Under the pieces are notes generated by a model, which worked only from the letters and a program-made list of their open reading frames with translations, was not told the origin of the DNA and did not search any database. Both the position numbers and the translations under genes were made by a program. DNA of 64,000 bases from Mobula hypostoma (taxonomy: Eukaryota): the NCBI RefSeq assembly GCF_963921235.1, contig NC_086097.1:92568001-92632000 (forward strand). Direction: 5' to 3'. Shown here one piece after another: positions 35,650 to 61,366 of this stretch (positions within the stretch are counted from its first letter, which is position 1; each line of letters starts with the position of its first letter).

Positions 35650-36190
35650 GGCAAAACAGACAGATGAATTTCCTCCGCTCCATCTGCAAAAAACAGAACT
35701 TCCCGACGGCCAAGTATTTTATTTCTGATTCCCATTCCCATTCCTACACGTCAGTCTACTGCCTTTTCTTGTGCCGTGATGAGGGCACCCTCCGTGTGGA
35801 GGAGCAACACCTTGTATTCTGTCTGGGTACCCTCCACCCTGATGGCATGAATATTGGTTTATCCTCATGTTAAAAATATTTTCCCCTCTCCCTCCCCTCT
35901 TCCACCTGCCTATCCCCCTCCCCAGGTCCCCTCCTCCTCCTTTTCCCCTCTGGTCCACTCTCCTCTCTTATCACATTCCTTCTTCTCCAGCCCTTTATCT
36001 TTCCCACCCATCTGGCTTCACCTATCACCTTCTAGTTATGCTCTTTCCCTCCCCCCCACCTTTTTACTCTGGCCTCTTCCTCCTTCCATCTCAGTCCTGA
36101 AGAAGGATCTGAGCCCAGAACCTCAACTGTTTATTCATGCTGCCTGACCTGCTGAGTTCCTCCAATATCTTGTGGGTGTTACTTGAATTT
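35650..36190 (+). mobile_element. Penelope-like element 3' remnant (GIY-YIG endonuclease C-terminus + pLTR with decayed hammerhead)
   Basis: FLRSI..FPTAKYF..EEQHLVFCLGTLHPDGMNI, a pyrimidine-rich spacer, then cagtcctgaagaagg..ccc..caactg and tgctgcctgacctgctgagttcctcca. Confidence 0.8.
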
Positions 36191-36419
36191 CCTTTATTAT
36201 TAGGCAACATGGAAAAAATTCTCCCTGAGTTCTACCAGGGCACATCTTACAAATGCAGTAAAACATTTTATAATTTTCATTATGAATATTAATGTGCAGA
36301 GTACAACTCCACAGTATTAAACCCATTAACATTTTAATCATATCCTGCTGCCTTGTATACTCATGGCCTTTTTATACAAGTTTGAATGTCACTCTGTTTC
36401 AAAAATTCCAAATGTTTCG

Positions 36420-41306: not shown

Positions 41307-44291
41307 TGTTGTAATGTGACCATTATAAAAGTAAGTTAATACTAATTAGGATAATGGGGGGGGGGTTACTTCCGTTATTTTTACTTCTAGTGTGCTCTGT
41401 ATATAGTGTTCCTGCCATGCCGTACGGGTTGTGAAAGCCTCTGTATATACATAACGGTTTGACGTTCGAGATAAAGTTGTTTCTTTGGGCATGAAGTTGT
41501 TGAGTGTGCCTTTTTCAAAGTAGAAGTTACCACATATTTTTGGCGACAAGGTAAACTGGTTTTGTGGACGTGTCGGCACTTTTCGAACGGGAGCAGCAGC
41601 GCCGATAGGGGCCTCACGTTCAGATGGCTACGTTTGGGACTATCGTTGAACTTGTGGAAGTAATGGAGGACTGGCCGGAGTATGAGGAAAGGTTGGGACA
41701 CTTTTTCTGTGCTAATGGAATTACGGAGGAGGCTAAGAAGCGCTCTATTCTTCTGAGTGTGTGTGGGGCGAAGACTTATAGGCTATTAAGGAATTTAGCC
41801 TCACCGCGGAAACCGGGGACATTCCATATGACGAACTGATCAAGCTCGTGGGGAACCACTACAATCCGAAACCTTCTGTGATAGTCCAATGGTGTAAGTT
41901 TCACAGCCGTTTCAGGAAGCCAGGTCAGTCTGTGGCCAATTTTGTGGCAAAGCTTCGGCAGCTGTCGGAGCATTGTGATTTCGGAGCGGTGTTGAATGAC
42001 ATGCTCCGTGATCGATTGGTATGCGGCATTAATAATGACGGCATGCAACGCCGCCTGTTGGGGGAAACCCCACCGTTGACTTTCAGGAAAGCCTTAAAGA
42101 TTGCCCAAGGCATGGAGATGGCTGTTAATAATGTCAAGGATATCCAGAAAGGACATGGGGGTTGCAGTCGGCGGCAGTGCACCAAGTCGGGAGGGAGACT
42201 GGTAAACAGGCAAAGCGGGTGGAATGTTTCCGGTGTGGAGGGACGCACTATGCAAATGATTGCAAATTCACTGACAATGTCTGCTATGCTTGTAGCAAAA
42301 AGGGACATTTAGCTAAAAAGTGCAGAAGTTCAAAGGGTAAGATGAAGCCTGGGCAGCGGAAACCTCAACAGGGCTCAGGCAGCCACACACCATCTAGAAG
42401 AAGCAGATGAAGAGGCAGCGTGTGTCTACAACATGTTTGCAGTGGAAACAGATGAGGAACCACCTGAACCATATTATGCCACAGTCACTGTCAGGGGAAA
42501 GGACATTAAGTTTGAGATTGATTCAGGGGCTACTGCATCGGTCATTAGTGAAGAGACCTTCAGGAGGACATGGGGGTCCAACCTGCCTCCCATTAGACCA
42601 TCAAAGCTCAAACTTAGGATCTATACGGGGCAGCCCATACCTCATTTATGGGTGTTATATGTGGACATTTCAGCCGGGGGTCAGAAGGCTGAAGCCAGGC
42701 TAGTGATAGCTAAGGGCAGGAGAGACTGTGTTTTCATTGGAGAGGCTGTCAGAGACACCTGTAAAGGTGACCCAGATCAGGCAGTGGACAGAGAGGGACC
42801 CAGTCCTGTCCCAAGTCAAGACTTTTCTTTTACAAGGTTGGCCCAGAGTCCTGGAAGGAGAGGAACTGAGGCCTTATGCCAAACGCAAGACAGAACTCAG
42901 TCTGCAGAATGGCTGCATTTTCTGGGGGGCGAGGGTCAAGGTGCCTCCCCCGGCCATTCACAGATTGTGGAGGAAATTCATGAGACTCACCCAGGGGTGT
43001 CTCGAATGAAAAGCCTTGCAAGATCCTACGTTTGGTGGCCAAGAATGGATCAGGATCTGGAGAACAAGGTAAAATCATGCACGCAATGTCAGACTAATCA
43101 GAATATGCCACCACCAGCTCCTTTGCACTCATGGGAATGGCCAGACCACCCCTGGCCTAGGCTACATTTGGACTTTGCTGGCCCTTTTCTGGGGCAGATG
43201 TTTCTTGTAAAGGTAGATGCGCATTCTAAATGGATCGAAGCTCACATCATGAGCAACATCACATCCCCCTCAACCATAGACAAACTCAGGCAAATGTTTG
43301 CAGTCCACGGGTTGCCTGACACTCTGGTCACTGATAATGGCCCGACGTTCACCAGTGAGCTGTTCAGTGAGTTCATGCAGCAGAATGGCATTTGTCAAAT
43401 TCAGACGCCCCTTTCCACCCAGCATCCAGTGGTTTGGCTGAGCGGGCTGTTCAGACAGTGAAGGAAGGCTTGAAGCGGATGACAGGGGACTCTCTTAGCA
43501 TTCGGCTTTCACGTTTCCTGTTTAAATACCGCCTCACGCCACAGACTACGACTGCCCGCACTCCAGCAGAGATGCTGATGGGGCATAAATCCAAGTCAAG
43601 ATTGGACCTACTGTGCCGGACATGAAAGCAAAAGTGAGACAGACTATGGTGGAAGCATGTCCACCAGTGACTTTGCCAGAGGGCGAGACGCTGGCAGAGG
43701 GGTCGGGGTCCCCTAAGGAGGATGGACATTCTCACACAGACACACAGACCCCTCTCATGCCCCCAAAACACCCTCACCTGCTGGGTCACCAGGGGTAGTG
43801 CACAGATCACAGCGCACTCGTAAGCCTCCTGACAGACTGAATCTTTAATGGGACAGTTTTTTTTTATTGTTGTTAGATTGAATGTTGAATCTGTCATGTT
43901 TTCCAGATGTTTTGTATTGGTAAACTGTTGCTGAGATATTAGTATAAGTTTTCAGGGGTACGCAAGTTAATAACACCACTGTTTTTATTTCCTAGTTTTT
44001 TTTTACATTTGGGGAATGTTGGATTTTAAAGGGGGAGAAGTGTTGTAATGTGAGCATTATTAAAAGTAAGTTAATACTAATTAGGATAATGGGGATAAAA
44101 ATGGGGATAAATAGGATAAAAAGAACTTCCGTTCTTTTTACTTCCAGTGTGCTTTGTATGTGGTGTGCCTGCCATGCCGTACGGGTTGTGAAAGCCTCTG
44201 TATATACATAATGGTTTGACGTTCGAGATAAAGTTGTTTTTTTGGACATGAAGTTGTCGAGTGTGCCTTTTTCAAAGTAGAAGTTACCACA
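41307..44291 (+). mobile_element. Gypsy LTR retrotransposon, internally deleted (no RT/RNase H)
   Basis: LTRs at 41307-41534 and 44041-44291 (TG..CA). 5-bp TSD CTCTC at 41302-41306 and 44292-44296. PBS-like TGGCGAC at 41541; PPT AAAGGGGGAGAAG just before 44041. Confidence 0.96.
41624..43640 (+). pseudogene. Gypsy gag (Zn knuckles) - protease (DSGA) - integrase (HHCC, DDE), frameshifted
   Basis: LRDRLVCGI; CFRCGGTH..CYACSKKGHLAKKC; IDSGATAS; HPGVSRMK..CTQC; LDFAGP; TDNG; GLAERAV. Confidence 0.9.
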
Positions 44292-47530: not shown

Positions 47531-47672
47531 GTGCTTAACTTCCTTACCACAAATTAACTCCCCTTCAACCCTTTTATTTCTTTGACCGAAGTGCATGATC
47601 ATACACTTCTTGACACTGTATTCTGTCTGCCAATTCTTTGCCTATTCTCCTAATCTAAATTCTACTGTAGCC

Positions 47673-47885
47673 AACAGGAATTCTGCAGATGCTGGAAATT
47701 CAAGCAACACACATAAAAGTTGCTGGTGAACGCAGCAGGCCAGACAGCATCTCTAGGAAGAGGCGCAGTCGACGTTTCAGGCCGAGACCAGTCCTGACGA
47801 AGGGTCTCGGCCTGAAACGTCGACTGCACCTCTTCCTCGAGATGCTGTCCGGCCTGCTGCGTTCACCAGCAACTTTTATGTGTGT
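47673..47885. mobile_element. Fold-back Penelope-derived mini-element, copy A
   Basis: 84-bp inverted arms at 47706-47789 and 47803-47886 (3 mismatches). 13-bp TSD TTCTACTGTAGCC at 47660-47672 and 47886-47898. Confidence 0.9.
47789..47826 (+). ncRNA. Minimal type I hammerhead ribozyme motif
   Basis: CAGTC-CTGACGA-AGG-gtctcgg-CCT-GAAA-CGTC^GACTG: stem I CAGTC/GACTG, stem II AGG/CCT, palindromic ACGT in place of stem III. Predicted cut after 47821. Confidence 0.8.
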
Positions 47886-48949
47886 TTCTACTGTAGCCTC
47901 TCTATTTCTTCACAACTATCTGCCCCTCCAGCTATCTTCATATCATCTGCACACTTTGCAACAAAGCCATCAATTCCATCATCCAAATCATTGACATATA
48001 ATGTAAGAAGAATCAGTCCCAACACAGACCCCTGTGGATCACCATTAGTCACCGGCAGCCAAGCAGAAAAGGCTCCCTTTATTCCCACTCTGCCTCCTGT
48101 CAATTAGGCACCGCTTTATCCATGCTAGAGTCTTTCCTGTAATACTATGGGCTTGTAGCTTGTTAAACAGTCTCCTGTGTGGCACCTTGTCAAAGGCCTT
48201 CTGAAAATCCAAGTACACAACATCAACTGATTCTCCTTTGTCTATCCTGTTTGTTACTTCTTCAAAGAATTCCAACAGATTTGTCAGGCAAGATTTTCCC
48301 TTGAGGAAACCATGTTGACTACATCTTATTTTATCACATGCCTCCAAGTAGCCTGAGACCTCAACCTTAATAACTGACTCCAAAATCTTCCCAACTACTG
48401 AGGTCAGATTATCTGGCCTAGTTTCCTTTCTTCTGCCTCTTTTTCTTTGTAAAGAGTGGAGTGTCATTTGCAATTTTCCAGTCTTCTGGAACCATTCCAG
48501 AATCTAGTGATTTTTGAGAGATCATTACTCATGCCTGCACAACCTCTTCAGCCACCTCTTTCGGAACTCTGGGGTGTAGGTGACATCTGGTTCATGTGGC
48601 TTATATACCTTTAGACCTTCCAGTTTCCCAAGAACCTTCTCTCTAGTTATGGTAACTTCACACACTTCATGCCCCTGTCACCTGGAACTTCCACCATACT
48701 GCAAGTGTCTTCCATAGTGAAGACAGATGTAAAATACTTATTCAGTTCATCTCCATTACTACTTCGCTGGCATTGTTTTCCGGCAGTCCAATATCCACTC
48801 CTGCCTCTCTTTCACACTTCACGTATCTGAAGAAATTTTAGGTATCCTGATACAATCTTTGCTCATTGGACTACGGTTTCCTTTACAAATAATGTATTCA
48901 TCTATTCCATGTATAAGGTCAATCCTCTATGGGTTCTGTCTATACTTCT

Positions 48950-49335: not shown

Positions 49336-49643
49336 TCACTTTTGAGGGCATGCCACTTAAAATAGGATAACACATAAAATGGACTTATTTGCTGCCAAGC
49401 AACCCTCTCCAAACACCACCAGAGGTCAGTAAAGTATTGATAATAAGAGACACTAGCAGTTCCATAATTGACAAAGTCAAAAGCCTTTATTTCAAGTCAC
49501 AGATTTGGAAGAGGTACAGTGGGGAACAGTAACATCACTCTCACCCTTTTGGATTTTCTCCTAGACTGTCTCTGAGGGTTGTTGAGAATAAAGCCTAGCA
49601 CTGACAATAGTAAAACCAGAGAAATGAGTGGTTAATATTCAAA

Positions 49644-49801
49644 CAACAGGAATTCTGCAGATGCTGGAAATTCAAGCAACACACATCAAAGTTGCTGGTG
49701 AACACAGCAGGCCAGGCAGCATCTCTAGGACAACGTCGACTGTACCTCTTCCTAGAGATGCTGCCTGGCCTGCTGCGTTCACCAGTAACTTTGATGTGTG
49801 T
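49644..49801. mobile_element. Fold-back Penelope-derived mini-element, copy B (hammerhead 5' half absent)
   Basis: Inverted arms aacacacatc..tctctagga / tcctagaga..gatgtgtgtt. 15-bp TSD TGGTTAATATTCAAA at 49629-49643 and 49802-49816. Confidence 0.9.
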
Positions 49802-49899
49802 TGGTTAATATTCAAATCTTTGCTCAGCCAGCAAAGTAAACTCCAATTATCCATAAATTTAAGAGCAGGGAGCACTGGCAAAAAAAAATGTCCTTCTTG

Positions 49900-52640: not shown

Positions 52641-52821
52641 GAATTATTGAAAGAGAAAACACAAGCAACAATAATTCATTATAAATAGAAGATACTGCTA
52701 TGATGACACAATTAACATAAAGAAAGCCTTACTGATGTTCTCCAGAATTGCAGCTGCTGCAGAACAATAAATTTCATTTCACATAAGTCAGTGATAATAA
52801 ATCAGATTCTGATTGTTTTGT

Positions 52822-53012
52822 AGCAACACACAAAGGAAATGGAAAAACCCAAGTCAGGTTGCATCTGTGGAGGGACATGAATAATCAATGTTTTGGGTCA
52901 AGACCCTTTATCAGGACTTGATGAAACACCAAGTGTCCATTTCTCTCCATAGATGCTGCCTGAACTCCTGAGTACCTCCAGCTCCTTTGTGTGTTATTAG
53001 AGACTTCCAGTC
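52822..53012. mobile_element. Older fold-back Penelope pLTR remnant with decayed hammerhead (minus strand)
   Basis: Minus: agtcctgataaagggtcttgacccaaaacatt. Plus: catagatgctgcctgaactcctgagtacctccag. Confidence 0.6.
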
Positions 53013-55140
53013 TGTCATGTCTCCTAATTGTATTGTAGTTTATGCAGATATTTTTATGAAAAGGTTTATTTTTGAAACAAAAAAATTATGGAACCAAATC
53101 TTATGCTATTTAGAGTTATTAGAACAATGACCAAATAATTAGCCAAAGAAGAGGGTTTTAAGAACCACCAAAGTAGGAAAAAGAGACAAAAAGGGCTTTA
53201 AGAAATAGATTTCCTCAAACAGCCTAGCCTGTTGAGGGCACTGTTCTCAATGATATAGTGATTAATATTGCAGATTCAAAGTACATTTGTTATCAAAGTA
53301 TGTATGCAGTAGAGATACATACTGTCTGTAGTTCCCCAACGACAGCCATGAAACAAAGGCAGCTATGGAACTTGCTCAAAAAAAAATCAACACACCCCCC
53401 CATACATGAAAAAAGTCATGTAAAACGGCAACAGAAGAGTGAAAAACACAAAATCGAAAGTCTAGGCATATTCATTTCAGCTCAATGTCCGTTATCTGCC
53501 AGCCGTCCTGATTCAAAGTTGCCCAAAATAGCTGCAAAAAAGAGGAGCAACCAAAAAACCAGAAACACATCATAACATGAACTACAGAGTCCAATCCACA
53601 AACCACATTGATTAAACCTTGCCTGAGACCCAGAACTCCAGCACTACCTTTCGACAGAATCGAGGGAAAGAGAGACCATTCAAACACATTCCACTGGGAG
53701 CAGCGAGCATGAGAGAGACCGTCACACACAGACACCTTCATCTGGCAGCAATGAGCAAAGGGCTGGTAGACTGCGCTGAACACCCGCTGGCTTTCCACAG
53801 ATAATCTAAAGGCCACAACTCATAGAGCTCAAAGAGCTCAGAATTTTAAAGGACTACAAGAGTTTAGAGATAGATGTTGGTGAAACAAAAGATGGATTCA
53901 AAAGCATGGATGAGGATTTTAAAATGGAAGAATCGCCAGCCTGGGACTAATATGGGTCAGAGATCCTCACGTAGGACTGGTGAAAGGGACAACACAGATG
54001 ACTTCAGGTTTACAAGAGGTGCAACACCAGAGAAAAACAAGGAGAGCACCGGAGTAGTTACTGCAAAATTCAAACATCTTGAGTCCAACATTGGCCTTTG
54101 TGCAGGGTGCAGAAAATCAGCCATGCCCCTTGATCAGTCCAAGAAAATGTTGGTGGCAATTACATACTGTTGCCTTGTTGAGTAGCTGTTAAGCCTCCTG
54201 CAGTCAATTTGTGGTGTTGAGAGTAATCACTGTGTCTTGTGGTTGAGTAAGAGTGTTGGTTAGAAATAGTGCTTCCTGCAGAATTCATTAGTGTCCCTTA
54301 TCATTACAGTAATCAATTTACATTGATTGATTTACAACTAAACATCCAAACGATTATTAATCAAAGAAATTAATCTGACCTGCTCACAGCATGGTACAAG
54401 AATTAATCTGCATATTACAGGTATGATACATAAAAGAGAGATGTAGCATAGAATGCATTAGGGGGGATGATTTGCCCAGTTGACTGTCATTGGCTCTTAC
54501 CCTCACTGGTACAGCTTGTTGTGTCAGTCAGTACAGGGTTACTATGATACTATCTTATTACCATACCCAAGCCACTGGCAGAAAACTGGGAACCACAGCC
54601 TTGCCCCTCTGCCCCCTCCTCCCATTCTCTCTGTAACCTCCAGTAACCACTCAACCCTTCAGGGTTTTTGGTCTGATCCAGTAACGGACTCCTGTGAATC
54701 TCTCACCAGGTCCACCATGAACAAAAGCTGTGACTTCCAGAAATCCCTCTCCTTAAATAAGTTTATGGCTCTGAGCAATTTTTTTTTCCTTTTCCATCGT
54801 GAAGTACCTTATGGCTTTTTAATGGTGTTGAATTGCAAATGGAAGTTGTTTTGTTTGGTAGAGGAGAGTTTGTTGATGTCTTGCAGCGTTTTTAATTATC
54901 TTCCTGGATGACTTTGTAACTTTGCAGAGGAAACAGGCCATTGGCCTACTTTTGTTTAAAGCATTTGTGATCATTTTTGCGGTCTCCAAGTACCCAAACT
55001 TCAATGCCCAACTTTAGCTGAGAGCTTTTAAAGGAACATAGCCTCTCAATTTGCCTCTCCACAGCATCCATTGTATTGTGTTTCACAGAATATACATCAC
55101 AAGAGGCCATTCAGCCTATCAAGTCAGCCCTGAACAACTT

Positions 55141-55601
55141 AAACACAAGGAAATCTGCAGATGCTGGAAATTCAAGCAACACACATCAAAGTTGCTGGTG
55201 AACGCAGCAGGCCAGGCAGCATCTCTAGGAAGAGGTACAGTCGACGTTTCGGACCGAGACCCTGCGTCAGGACTAACTGAAAGAAAAGCTAGTAAGAGAA
55301 TTGAAAGGGGGAGGGGGAGATCCAAAATGATAGGAGAAGACAGGAGGGGGAGGGATGGAGCCAAGAGCTGGACAGGTGATTGGCAAAAGGGATATGGGAG
55401 GATCATGGGACAGGAGGCCCAGGGAGAAGGAAAAGGGGGGGGGGACCCAGAGGATGGGCAAGGGGTATAGTCAGAGGGACAGAGGGAGAAAAAGGAGAGA
55501 GAGAAAAGGAATGTGTGTATATAAATAAATATCCGATGGGGTACGAGGGGGAGGTGGGGCATTAGCGAAAGTTTGAGAAGTCAATGTTCATGCCATCAGG
55601 T
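55141..55601 (-). mobile_element. Penelope-like element 3' end (ORF end PDGMNIDFSNFR* + pLTR)
   Basis: Same pLTR as the fold-back copies. Hammerhead at 55238-55275 with core variant CTGACGC. Confidence 0.88.
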
Positions 55602-58063: not shown

Positions 58064-59110
58064 CTGATCAAGAGAGGGAGGGAGAAAAGAACCATGGTTA
58101 AATACACATATTCCATGGTTTTGTTGTCTCACAGCACTTTACAGCCAACTCTGAAGTGCAGTCACAACTGTAACATTAAAAATGCAAGTTGGCTTACACA
58201 CAAAACGTAGGTGCAAAACAGCAATACACTAATGACTCACAATCAATGATACAGAAACAGCTTCCACCTCTCCACCATCAGATTTCTGAATGGTCTTGGA
58301 ACACTAGCTCTTTGTTTATTCCTTTTTTCCCCTCTTATTTTTCTTATTCCTTTTTTTTGCACTATTTATATTTATAGCAATTTTATGTCCTTACACTGTA
58401 CTGCTGCCCCAAACAACAAATTTCATGTCATACAAGTCAGTATAAATCATATAAATCTAATTCAGTCCATTTAAGTATTACTGACGGATAGATAAAAGCT
58501 GGCTTGGTCAAGGAAAATAACTTGCTTTGTCCTTTCTTTGAAAAATGCCAAGGGATCTATTACATTCACTCAAGGAAGGACCCAGGATCTTGGTTAATCA
58601 ACATACCTCTAATACTTCAGTGCTCTCTCAGCAATGCACTACAGTATCAAATAAATTGTGACATCAGCTGTTGGACTTGAACCTATAACCTAACACAAGA
58701 AAAGAATTGCCACTGATAAATTTAGCTCATTACTAACTGGTGCACTGAGAAATCCTCTCTCATCAATGCCTTTATAAGGACTCTTGAGGGCTGGCCTTCC
58801 TCACATTCAAACCAAAGGTTAAGAGCACAGGCTCCACTCTACACAATACTGAGACAGGCCAGATCACAATGCTAGAGCAGTGGTCCCCAACCTCCGGGCC
58901 GCGGACCGACACATTACTGCGAAGAATGCAGTGGTACAGCAGTAGCCGGAACGCACCCAGCACATCTGTAAGAAAAAAGCCGAAATAAACAAGCTAATTA
59001 ATTAGGTGCCTCCTGGCACGTAAATGTCGGACCAGATCAGAGGTGATTGCCGATTGCATTGCCTCTGATCTGGGCCGACATTTACGTGCCGGGTGGCACT
59101 TAATTAATTA

Positions 59111-59331
59111 CAAACAACAGGAATTCTGCAGATGCTGGAAATTCAAGCAACATACATCAAAGTTGCTGGTGAACGCAGCAGGCCAAGCAGCATCTATAGG
59201 AAGAGGCGCAGTCGACGTTTCAGGCCGAGACCTTAGTCCTGACGAAGGGTCTCGGCCTGAAACGTCGACTGCGCCTCTTCCTATAGATGCTGCTTGGCCT
59301 GCTGCGTTCACCAGCAACTTTGATGTATGTT
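59111..59331. mobile_element. Fold-back Penelope-derived mini-element, copy C
   Basis: Perfect 84-bp arms at 59149-59232 and 59248-59331. 13-bp TSD AC(T/C)TAATTAATTA at 59098-59110 and 59332-59344. Confidence 0.92.
59234..59271 (+). ncRNA. Minimal type I hammerhead ribozyme motif
   Basis: TAGTC-CTGACGA-AGG-gtctcgg-CCT-GAAA-CGTC^GACTG. Predicted cut after 59266. Confidence 0.8.
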
Positions 59332-60204
59332 ACCTAATTAATTAGCTTGTTTATTTCAGCTTTTTTCTTAAAGGTGCGCTGGGTGCGTTCCAACTATTGC
59401 TGCACCACTGCATTCTTCGTGGCACTGTATTGGTCCGTGGCCCGGAGATTGGGAACCACTGTGCTAGAGGATCGAAAGTTTGAACACACCAATACAAAGG
59501 TGTATTTAGTGCATAAACTGGCCCTGAGTTCACTGTTTTCTGGGAAAGGATCATCTACTGGAATCCAATGTCGAATTGTCTTTACACAATTTAAAATGGT
59601 AACATCTTGTTCATTCCCACGCAATTTAATTGGAGCAAGCTGTCTATTCTCTTCAACGCATCATGATCTCAGCAGCTTTAAAGTGTAAAGGTTCTCTGCA
59701 CCCTATTCAGAATCACAATATCTTGTGACGGAACCGAAACTGAACAAGGGTCAGGAGTTATTTGTAAAAAGGAGAAATTTGTACTTATCGAGAGGAAATT
59801 CATTCATTCTCCAATATCAGTCATACCAGAGGAGATCAATATCCTTGTACTTCTTCGCAGTTAGCACTAGTATCACCTCTCCACACCTTGACATCCATTC
59901 AACCTGGTCAGCAACAGCAATTCAGCATTTTTGAGTGCTTGGGAGCGTACACTTCTATATGCTGAAGTAGGCAAAGTAAAGTTCAGAACTTCCACACATT
60001 AGATTACCATTCCCTGAACAACTGTGCTCCTCTGCTGGACTCCTCAGAAGTCTAGCGGGACAGCAATAACCTCTGCATATTTCCCCTCATACTGGCAGGA
60101 AACCTTGACACATGAAGCAGATGTATTCATCTGAATGGGAGGAAATGGACACAAAGGGAAAAACACTGGCAAGACCATATTCATTTAACACTTTAATTAT
60201 TTTC

Positions 60205-60342
60205 CTTTCATCAGGACTGATTAAGGATCTTGGCCCAAAACCTCAAATGTTTATTCTCTTCCATAGATGCTGCCTGACCTCCTGAGTTCCTCCAGCGTGT
60301 GTGTTACTCTGGACTTCCAACATCTCCAGAATCTCTTGTGTT
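60205..60342 (+). mobile_element. Older Penelope pLTR remnant
   Basis: ctgattaaggatcttggcccaaaac..catagatgctgcctgacctcctgagttcctccagc. Confidence 0.65.
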
Positions 60343-61366
60343 AATTAGTTTACAGTGATTTAAATTTTAACTGTTCTGAGTTACATAGTATTCAGAAGCG
60401 TTTTTAAATTTTAAATATTTGTGAATGTCAAAGACATTCAAGACAAGCCTGATTCTTCAATTGCAAAAAAAAATCCTGCACTGTATCTCACGGTTCAGAT
60501 GAAACCTGGTCTCGTGTGCTGGCACCCCTCTCCAGTAATCAACAGGTTGTAAATTGGTGAGCTCAGGCAGGTTGGAAGCAAGAAAATCCCAGATCACACA
60601 GCCTTAAAAATAAGTCACACAGAGAAAGCACCTACTAACTAGAACATAAGTGCCATACAGATTATAATAGTATAAAAAAAATACTGTGAAAAGAATATTC
60701 TTGAGTATTGCAACACATATTTAAATGTTCATTTGGGGTGTGGGTGTCAAAGAACTGTTTCTTGTGGCCCAGCTTCAGATACCCTCATGGTGAGGATAGT
60801 GCGTTACCTCCATGCTCTGGTAGAGGGCTGTGTTCTTCCCAGGATCAAAACTGGAAAAGATACACACTGCCTAGTCAGGATGGCTGTTAATTGGAGGTGG
60901 GAGCTCCAAGCAACTCTGTTGTAGGAGGTCCAGAAGCTGTTTGAATGAGAGACTGGCAAGGCAGTATAACTGACAGTGACTGCAGGTGACGAGATGAGGA
61001 GAAGTTCATTTAGTTCAGTTTTGCCATCATCAATATTTGATTATATAATTCCTCCAACCTAATTTTAGTTTTGGTAAAAGAACCTCAAGCTTAGGCAGGC
61101 TTTTTTGATAATTATAGCTTCTCATCCTTGTATTATCCCCAGGAATCTTTTCTACACCTTCCTCAGTGCCTCACCACCCAACCTGGAAGAATGGAGTCAG
61201 AATGACACAGTTCCCAAAATTAGTTAGGGCTCTGTTCCTCCCTAATCCCACCTGCATTTTTTCCTTAACTTCTTAAATGTATTTATACCTTTTAACTCCT
61301 TTTATACCTGTTAGTGTACATAATGTTCAAATCATGATTGATATCAATCCTTCGACTGATACCCAC

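What the first reader, a model, noticed from the sequence alone, without database searches (positions are those of the whole stretch)
47660..47898. Tiny TSD-flanked fold-back element carrying an intact minimal hammerhead ribozyme (retrozyme-like Penelope derivative)
Seen: a 213-bp non-coding insertion with a 13-bp TSD, 84-bp inverted arms, a 33-bp one-sided extension and a complete hammerhead core (CAGTC CTGACGA AGG..CCT GAAA CGTC GACTG). Copy C at 59111-59331 has the same architecture and its left arm ends at the same point (..CCGAGACC). Established: PLE pseudo-LTRs carry minimal type I hammerheads whose palindromic stem III (here ACGT) forms by dimerisation, and pLTRs are often inverted with a short 3' extension. 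Inference: this is either a protein-free, ribozyme-bearing mobile unit mobilised by a PLE, or a very recurrent abortive integration product. In a full transcript the antisense arm would pair with the ribozyme's 3' half, making cleavage conditional on folding.
Basis: partly seen in the sequence, partly recalled or inferred. Interest (0 to 1): 0.8.

Follow-up and report, generated by a model that had tools for sequence, protein, structure and literature searches.

The report
Stub insertion of a Penelope retrotransposon
This 213-base hairpin is a real but ordinary stub left by a very abundant Penelope-type jumping gene, two back-to-back copies of its end that were likely written afresh at each insertion from the two cut DNA strands, not a self-copying ribozyme element, and its built-in ribozyme is predicted to be blocked by the hairpin.

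Summary
The anatomy is confirmed: 13-bp TSD, 84-bp inverted arms, 33-bp one-sided tail, minimal hammerhead core. It is the shortest form of the published Penelope-like element (PLE) insertion: a 5'-truncated, tailed pLTR joined head-to-head to a tail-less inverted pLTR. An unfolded relative at 55141-55601 runs on into a PLE ORF end. It is not a discrete retrozyme family. The window's fold-backs (B, C, D, F) have four different hinges, B and C carry different alleles on both arms, and D lacks the ribozyme core. In public contigs all 15 joints shown (of 362) differ: tailed arms stop anywhere over 66 nt, while inverted arms start within 16 nt of the hammerhead's 5' edge, not at its cut site. Most likely mechanism (inferred): both target nicks prime cDNA at the two known PLE start sites, the cDNAs run off an RNA 5' end near the hammerhead edge, and are joined. 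Eight bases of antisense arm abolish the predicted ribozyme fold. This scan has noted the same class and clustering many times before, on this and other genomes. Interest is low to modest, as a record of PLE integration.

The parts
47660..47672 (+). left target-site duplication (13 bp), inside a decayed CR1-type LINE RT sequence on the minus strand
47673..47705 (-). PLE 'tail', 33 bp, present on this arm only
   Evidence: matches the 30-40-bp tail of PMC8557442 and PMC11167929
47706..47789 (-). 5'-truncated pLTR arm (element positions s14-s97), ending inside hammerhead stem II
47790..47885 (+). inverted, tail-less pLTR arm (s1-s96), starting at the 5' strand of hammerhead stem I; 47790-47802 is the unpaired spacer
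47789..47826 (+). minimal type I hammerhead motif; predicted cut after 47821; G-U at pair 10.1-11.1
47886..47898 (+). right target-site duplication
49629..49816 (.). sister fold-back D: TSD 13-15 bp, tailed arm ends at s45, inverted arm starts at s27, lacks the CUGACGA core
55141..55601 (-). unfolded 5'-truncated parent copy E: last 12 codons of the ORF (PDGMNIDFSNFR-stop), 3' UTR, pLTR with mutated core, tail
59098..59344 (.). sister fold-back C: TSD 13 bp (1 mismatch), identical 84-bp arms, inverted arm starts at s-1; inserted in a hAT-like MITE
52809..53038 (.). older-subfamily fold-back F: TSD 13 of 15 matching, tail-less arm (left) starts at s1
60193..60351 (.). older-subfamily locus G: tailed arm plus an inverted stub of about 16 nt starting at about s-1; TSD tentative (10 of 11, AT-rich)

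Best explanation
The element is a minimal insertion of an abundant Penelope-like retrotransposon, made of a tailed and a tail-less copy of the element's end joined head-to-head between a 13-bp duplication, and it was likely built during this one insertion rather than copied from a hairpin master. Shown: the anatomy, the parent copy, different hinges and alleles among copies, and clustering of inverted-arm starts at the hammerhead's 5' edge. Inferred: the PLE protein nicks both strands 13 bp apart; each nick primes reverse transcription, one at the tail start site and one at the tail-less start site about 33 nt away; both copy uncleaved RNA towards its 5' end, which likely lies just upstream of the hammerhead (an initiator-like TCAGTT that also reads as a splice acceptor, labels recalled); the two cDNA 3' ends are trimmed and joined. 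The ribozyme is a passenger and is predicted to be unable to fold in a read-through transcript. Confidence that it is a recurrent product and not a family: about 0.85; in the full two-nick run-off mechanism: about 0.55.
For: Published typical structure: inverted pLTR, 31-bp tail and 9-bp TSD (PMC3846280); inverted 5'-truncated copy and 30-40-bp tail (PMC8557442). In vitro a PLE protein cleaves and extends both strands, starts at two internal sites that delimit the tail, and does not need ribozyme cleavage (PMC11167929). Parent copy E reaches the ORF end. Window hinges (inverted start / tailed limit): B +1/14, C -1/14, D 27/45, F +1/about 6-25, G about -1/about 9. Arms match within a locus better than between B and C: 3 and 0 mismatches against 5-8 over 83 nt; one diagnostic allele of each is a common family allele (about 27-29% and 22-25% of depth in X1 and X5). 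15 joints shown of 362: inverted-arm start s0-s16 (sd 4.4), tailed-arm limit s47-s112 (sd 21.9), all distinct. Loose ends pile at both 3' ends, tailed (47672/47676) and tail-less (47702-47704). Folding: ribozyme stems fall from above 0.87 to 0.02 with 8 nt of antisense arm.
Against: B and C share the same tailed-arm end (s14), which a shared ancestor would also give. The joint tally is a biased 15 of 362: a B-type hinge is not a joint on this reference, starts upstream of s1 collapse onto s0-s1, and joints inside the inverted repeat fit two places and are under-reported. One search shows one inverted arm starting 25 nt upstream of s1, and D starts at s27. No RNA 5' end was mapped. The abundance of the exact B hinge is only bounded (at most about 2-7% of peak depth; depth is not copy number), which leaves room for many copies. 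Matching alleles on both arms could also come from conversion after insertion. Short spacers could be secondary deletions of longer palindromes.
Confidence: 0.75

Rival explanations
1. The 213-bp hairpin is a discrete non-autonomous family (retrozyme-like) that is transcribed whole, perhaps circularised, and re-inserted by PLE protein.
For: B and C share the tailed-arm end and nearly the same length. One search lists a joint of a tail end directly to a tail-less end (55141-55174, opposite strands; 8, 3 and 1 contigs in X1, X5, X15), as a tandem or circular unit would give. One search lists one other hinge at high depth (47717-47862, depth 1461 in X5).
Against: Different hinges in B, C, D, F; different alleles in B and C; D has no ribozyme core; no tandem copies in the window; the whole transcript is a -172 kcal/mol hairpin with no ribozyme fold; 15 distinct joints of 15 shown. 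The tail-to-end joint can also arise when one element inserts at the end of another.
Confidence: 0.1
2. A single cDNA folds back on itself and self-primes, or a longer head-to-head palindrome is later trimmed at its centre by cruciform repair, so the hinge position reflects DNA structure and not an RNA end.
For: Spacers are similar and always from the tail-less arm in B, C, D (13, 15, 18 nt) at different depths; arms share alleles within a locus. Two joints carry short inverted letters at the hinge, a weak hint of snap-back.
Against: Simple snap-back from the tail-less cDNA cannot supply the tail of the other arm. In one search many joints pair a tailed arm of 19-84 nt with an inverted arm starting at s0-s16, so the two lengths are not coupled (Spearman -0.35, p 0.20, n 15). 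An older subfamily (F) starts at the same base as B.
Confidence: 0.12
3. Hammerhead cleavage creates the RNA end at which reverse transcription stops and so sets the hinge.
For: The hinge lies within the ribozyme; an earlier scan note on another genome reports hinges at the cut site (not verified here).
Against: Cleavage predicts starts at s33. None of 5 window loci and none of the 15 joints shown start there; they include the sequence 5' of the cut. Catalytic mutants do not change insertion in vitro (PMC11167929). Joints at s14 or beyond are under-reported, so a minor peak is not excluded.
Confidence: 0.05

Closest known systems
EN+ Penelope-like element insertion with adjacent inverted pLTR, one-sided 30-40-bp tail and TSD (Adineta Pen2a, PMC3846280; overview PMC8557442; D. 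virilis Penelope, PMC2377424)
   Same: Inverted 5'-truncated pLTR, tail at one end only, variable TSD, minimal hammerhead in the pLTR, heavy 5' truncation.
   Different: No ORF or body at all: only pLTR sequence, about 130 + 96 nt. The inverted arm's start clusters at the hammerhead's 5' edge, which the passages read do not describe.
Anolis Poseidon (PAc) in vitro system (PMC11167929)
   Same: Two RT start sites delimiting the tail; both strands cut and extended; hammerhead about 100 nt upstream of the start sites.
   Different: That paper does not describe joining of two cDNAs or the inverted product. The clade here is not established; Neptune is suggested by recall and by an earlier scan note.
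Non-LTR retrozymes (PMC7229834; bioRxiv 10.64898/2026.07.22.740005)
   Same: Small, non-coding, type I hammerhead, pLTR-related.
   Different: Retrozymes are head-to-tail tandem repeats with at least two ribozymes that yield monomer circles. This is a single head-to-head fold-back with one minimal motif facing its own antisense.
L1 twin priming (recalled; no paper read)
   Same: Both nicks prime cDNA, giving an inverted segment inside a TSD.
   Different: In L1 the two cDNAs copy different parts of one RNA; here both copy the same pLTR, giving a palindrome.

Membership tests
EN+ PLE insertion | pLTR sequence contiguous with a PLE 3' end | tested here: met
   92-94% match to copy E, which continues through a 3' UTR to an ORF end
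EN+ PLE insertion | adjacent inverted 5'-truncated copy | tested here: met
EN+ PLE insertion | 30-40-bp tail at one end only | tested here: met
   33 bp in B; same side rule in C, D, F
EN+ PLE insertion | target-site duplication | tested here: met
   13 bp exact; single in homologous CR1 copies within 4 nt
EN+ PLE insertion | autonomous partner with RT plus GIY-YIG ORF | tested here: inconclusive
   Only 12 terminal codons are in the window; PDGMN resembles PDGLN in GIY-YIG regions of two PLE proteins in the PMC8557442 supplement; no full ORF was retrieved
Neptune clade | Cys-rich linker between RT and EN | not testable with these tools
PLE minimal hammerhead | CUGANGA and GAAA-N-UH core, extra base between 9 and 10.1, palindromic 15.2-16.2 | tested here: met
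   against the features in PMC4209133
PLE minimal hammerhead | G10.1-C11.1 pair | tested here: not met
   G-U in B and C; U is a common minority allele, 30-46% of depth in four runs (place 55251)
PLE minimal hammerhead | self-cleavage as a dimer | not testable with these tools
   predicted active-type dimer -14.5 against -33.3 kcal/mol for an alternative fold; needs an experiment
Non-LTR retrozyme | head-to-tail tandem units with two or more ribozymes | tested here: not met
   single head-to-head unit; 2 family-type cores in the whole window, 11 kb apart
Non-LTR retrozyme | one fixed unit shared by copies | tested here: not met
   different hinges in B, C, D, F; 15 distinct of 15 joints shown
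Non-LTR retrozyme | circular monomer RNA | not testable with these tools
   only contigs of runs guessed to be RNA were available
MITE / fold-back DNA transposon | terminal inverted repeats at both ends with a short fixed TSD | tested here: not met
   33 bp of unpaired tail at one end; TSDs of 13-15 bp with unrelated sequences

The most novel reading that the evidence does not exclude
A short RNA of about 135 nt that begins at the hammerhead's 5' edge, possibly transcribed from solo pLTR stubs themselves, is the real protein-free mobile unit: PLE protein copies it from both target nicks and rebuilds a new hairpin at every insertion, so the hinges of these stubs map the RNA's 5' end and record the undescribed second-strand step of Penelope integration.
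Probability: 0.3. Interest if true: 0.55.

Novelty: new member of a known kind. Interest (0 to 1): 0.25.

Why it matters
As a new ribozyme element it does not hold. Its value is as evidence on how Penelope-like elements make their inverted ends, a step that PMC11167929 leaves unvalidated. If the inverted arm is a run-off cDNA from the second nick, the many stubs in ray genomes give a direct count of priming sites and RNA ends, and predict what the existing in vitro system should produce. It also suggests that the hammerhead is usually uncleaved in the RNA that is copied.

Tried and rejected
Rfam gave no hammerhead match; the miRNA-family hits are generic hairpin matches below gathering score. 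Pattern scans found nothing in viral contigs, nothing in metagenomes with a hammerhead pattern and nothing in prokaryote genomes. A looser metagenome pattern gave 120 loci; none matched the pLTR over more than 35 nt, so all were dropped. No RNA holder is on record; runs guessed to be RNA are contigs, so their depth was not used for expression or RNA ends. No splice-type joint at the candidate acceptor was among the 15 joints shown of 127; this is uninformative because the list is cut. No empty site of locus B was demonstrated: two rows skip the whole insert but come from a repeated flank. A protein search with the pLTR reading frame returned only two Mobula gene models containing the same peptide, which places the family in rays but gave no PLE ORF. 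No TSD was found for E (best 8 of 9, not adjacent). My first stem II register was wrong and was redone. Literature searches listed no paper devoted to pLTR-only fold-backs or to hinge clustering; most subscription papers are not in the library and the bioRxiv supplements were not seen.

Full report
Observation. The described structure is present. A 13-bp direct repeat flanks a 213-bp insert; the chance of such a match is about 5e-6. The insert is a 33-bp tail, an 84-bp arm, a 13-bp spacer and the inverted arm, with 3 mismatches between arms. The two flanks are consecutive parts of a decayed CR1-type reverse-transcriptase sequence; aligned separately to two other CR1 copies in the window, they imply a single copy of the 13-mer within a 4-nt gap (offsets worked out by me; RVT_1 hit further along the same LINE). 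The hammerhead core is complete, with the cut predicted after 47821. The better register has an extra A after A9, stem II GGGU/GCCU and a G-U wobble at the conserved 10.1-11.1 pair (features from PMC4209133, parts 1-2 of 4 read).

Origin. A profile built from window copies finds seven loci. Copy E (55141-55601, minus strand) is unfolded and runs from the last 12 codons of an ORF through a 3' UTR into the same pLTR and tail. Its terminal motif resembles the end of GIY-YIG regions of two PLE proteins in the supplement of PMC8557442; a full ORF was not recovered, so the clade is open. Two Mobula gene models contain the pLTR peptide, pointing to a ray genome. The family is very abundant: 155,440 contigs of run X1 were laid on E. 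In element coordinates (s1 = 47790) B is a tailed arm s14-s130 joined head-to-head to a tail-less arm s1-s96. This is the typical PLE layout: PMC3846280 (parts 1-3 of 5 read) describes an adjacent inverted pLTR, a 31-bp tail and a 9-bp TSD, and PMC8557442 (passages) gives the same as general. B is that layout without a body.

Family or recurrent product. Inverted-arm start and tailed-arm limit in the window are B +1/14, C -1/14, D 27/45, F +1/about 6-25 and, tentatively, G about -1/about 9; E and H are not inverted. D has the same architecture and a TSD but lacks the ribozyme core. Over 83 nt the arms differ by 3 (B) and 0 (C) within a locus and by 5-8 between B and C. One diagnostic allele of B and one of C are each common in the family (places 55187 and 55225), so the two loci likely derive from different source lineages. 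Laying four public runs on B gave 362 joints, of which 15 are shown. All 15 join a tailed arm to an inverted arm and all differ. Tailed arms stop at s47-s112, inverted arms start at s0-s16. Six of the ten rows of table 5c that join the two arms or skip the insert and are not repeats of table 5 also start at s2-s12; one starts at s73, one more at s12, and two skip the whole insert. Against over-reading: the list is cut, counting was incomplete for X1, a B-type hinge is invisible as a joint, starts upstream of s1 collapse onto s0-s1, and joints inside the inverted repeat fit two places. One search shows one inverted arm starting 25 nt upstream. The depth at the hinge bin is 1.7% (X5) and 6.6% (X1) of the peak, a loose ceiling on the share of B-type hinges, not a copy count. 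B and C do share the tailed-arm end, which I cannot explain beyond a hotspot.

Mechanism. PMC11167929 (parts 1-2 of 4 read) shows that a PLE protein cuts and extends both target strands, starts reverse transcription at two internal sites that delimit the tail, and inserts equally well with a dead ribozyme. Loose ends mark the same two 3' ends here. I infer that the two nicks prime one tailed and one tail-less cDNA, that both run towards the RNA's 5' end, and that their ends are trimmed and joined. The clustering at s0-s16 is best read as run-off at an RNA end just upstream of the hammerhead. The parent has TTTCAGTT there, which fits an initiator and also a splice acceptor (both labels recalled; D. 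virilis has an internal promoter, PMC2377424 passages, and an intron ending at helix I). I cannot separate the two; no upstream exon letters are seen at the hinges of B, C or F. The cut site (s33) is not the hinge in any window locus or shown joint.

Ribozyme. Alone, the 38-mer forms stems I and II but also pairs its core into an inactive helix. With 8 nt of the antisense arm the stems fall to 0.02, and in the whole transcript to 0.000. An active-type dimer is predicted far above the best alternative (-14.5 against -33.3 kcal/mol). These are predictions; minimal PLE hammerheads are weak in vitro and may need protein.

Comparison and novelty. Non-LTR retrozymes are tandem units with at least two ribozymes that yield circles (PMC7229834 passages; bioRxiv 10.64898/2026.07.22.740005 parts 1-3 of 5); both testable features fail here. 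Eight searches listed no paper on pLTR-only fold-backs or hinge clustering, but coverage is limited. My reading was recorded before consulting earlier notes. Those notes show that the scan has met this class often: 388 findings hold the search words, and several in this genome reach the same reading. They are not independent support.

Verdict. A real, ordinary member of a known insertion type, with a modestly interesting regularity. Interest 0.25.

Noticed in passing
window 58870-59469: Copy C sits inside a hAT-like MITE with long inverted repeats and an 8-bp TSD; the MITE's mirror arm shows C's target sequence once.
   Followed up: partly
window 55141 and 55174 (table 5): Joint of a tail end directly to a tail-less end on opposite strands in three runs; fits tandem or circular hairpin units, or insertion at the end of another copy.
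   Followed up: no
window 47717 to 47862 (table 5c): One hinge with depth 1461 in X5, far above the others; may be an amplified very small fold-back with a spacer of about 15 nt.
   Followed up: no
The other loci here were not checked for this.
   Followed up: partly
window 36072-36192: Old un-inverted pLTR (H) with a decayed hammerhead of an older subfamily.
   Followed up: partly
window 41782-43461: Decayed LTR-retrotransposon-like reading frames (gag-, protease- and integrase-like by eye).
   Followed up: no
window 45134, minus strand: A third CTGA-GA...GAAA motif outside the PLE family; probably chance.
   Followed up: no
P0001 and P0002: Two Mobula gene models include the pLTR reading frame in their predicted proteins; exonisation or annotation artefact.
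   Followed up: partly
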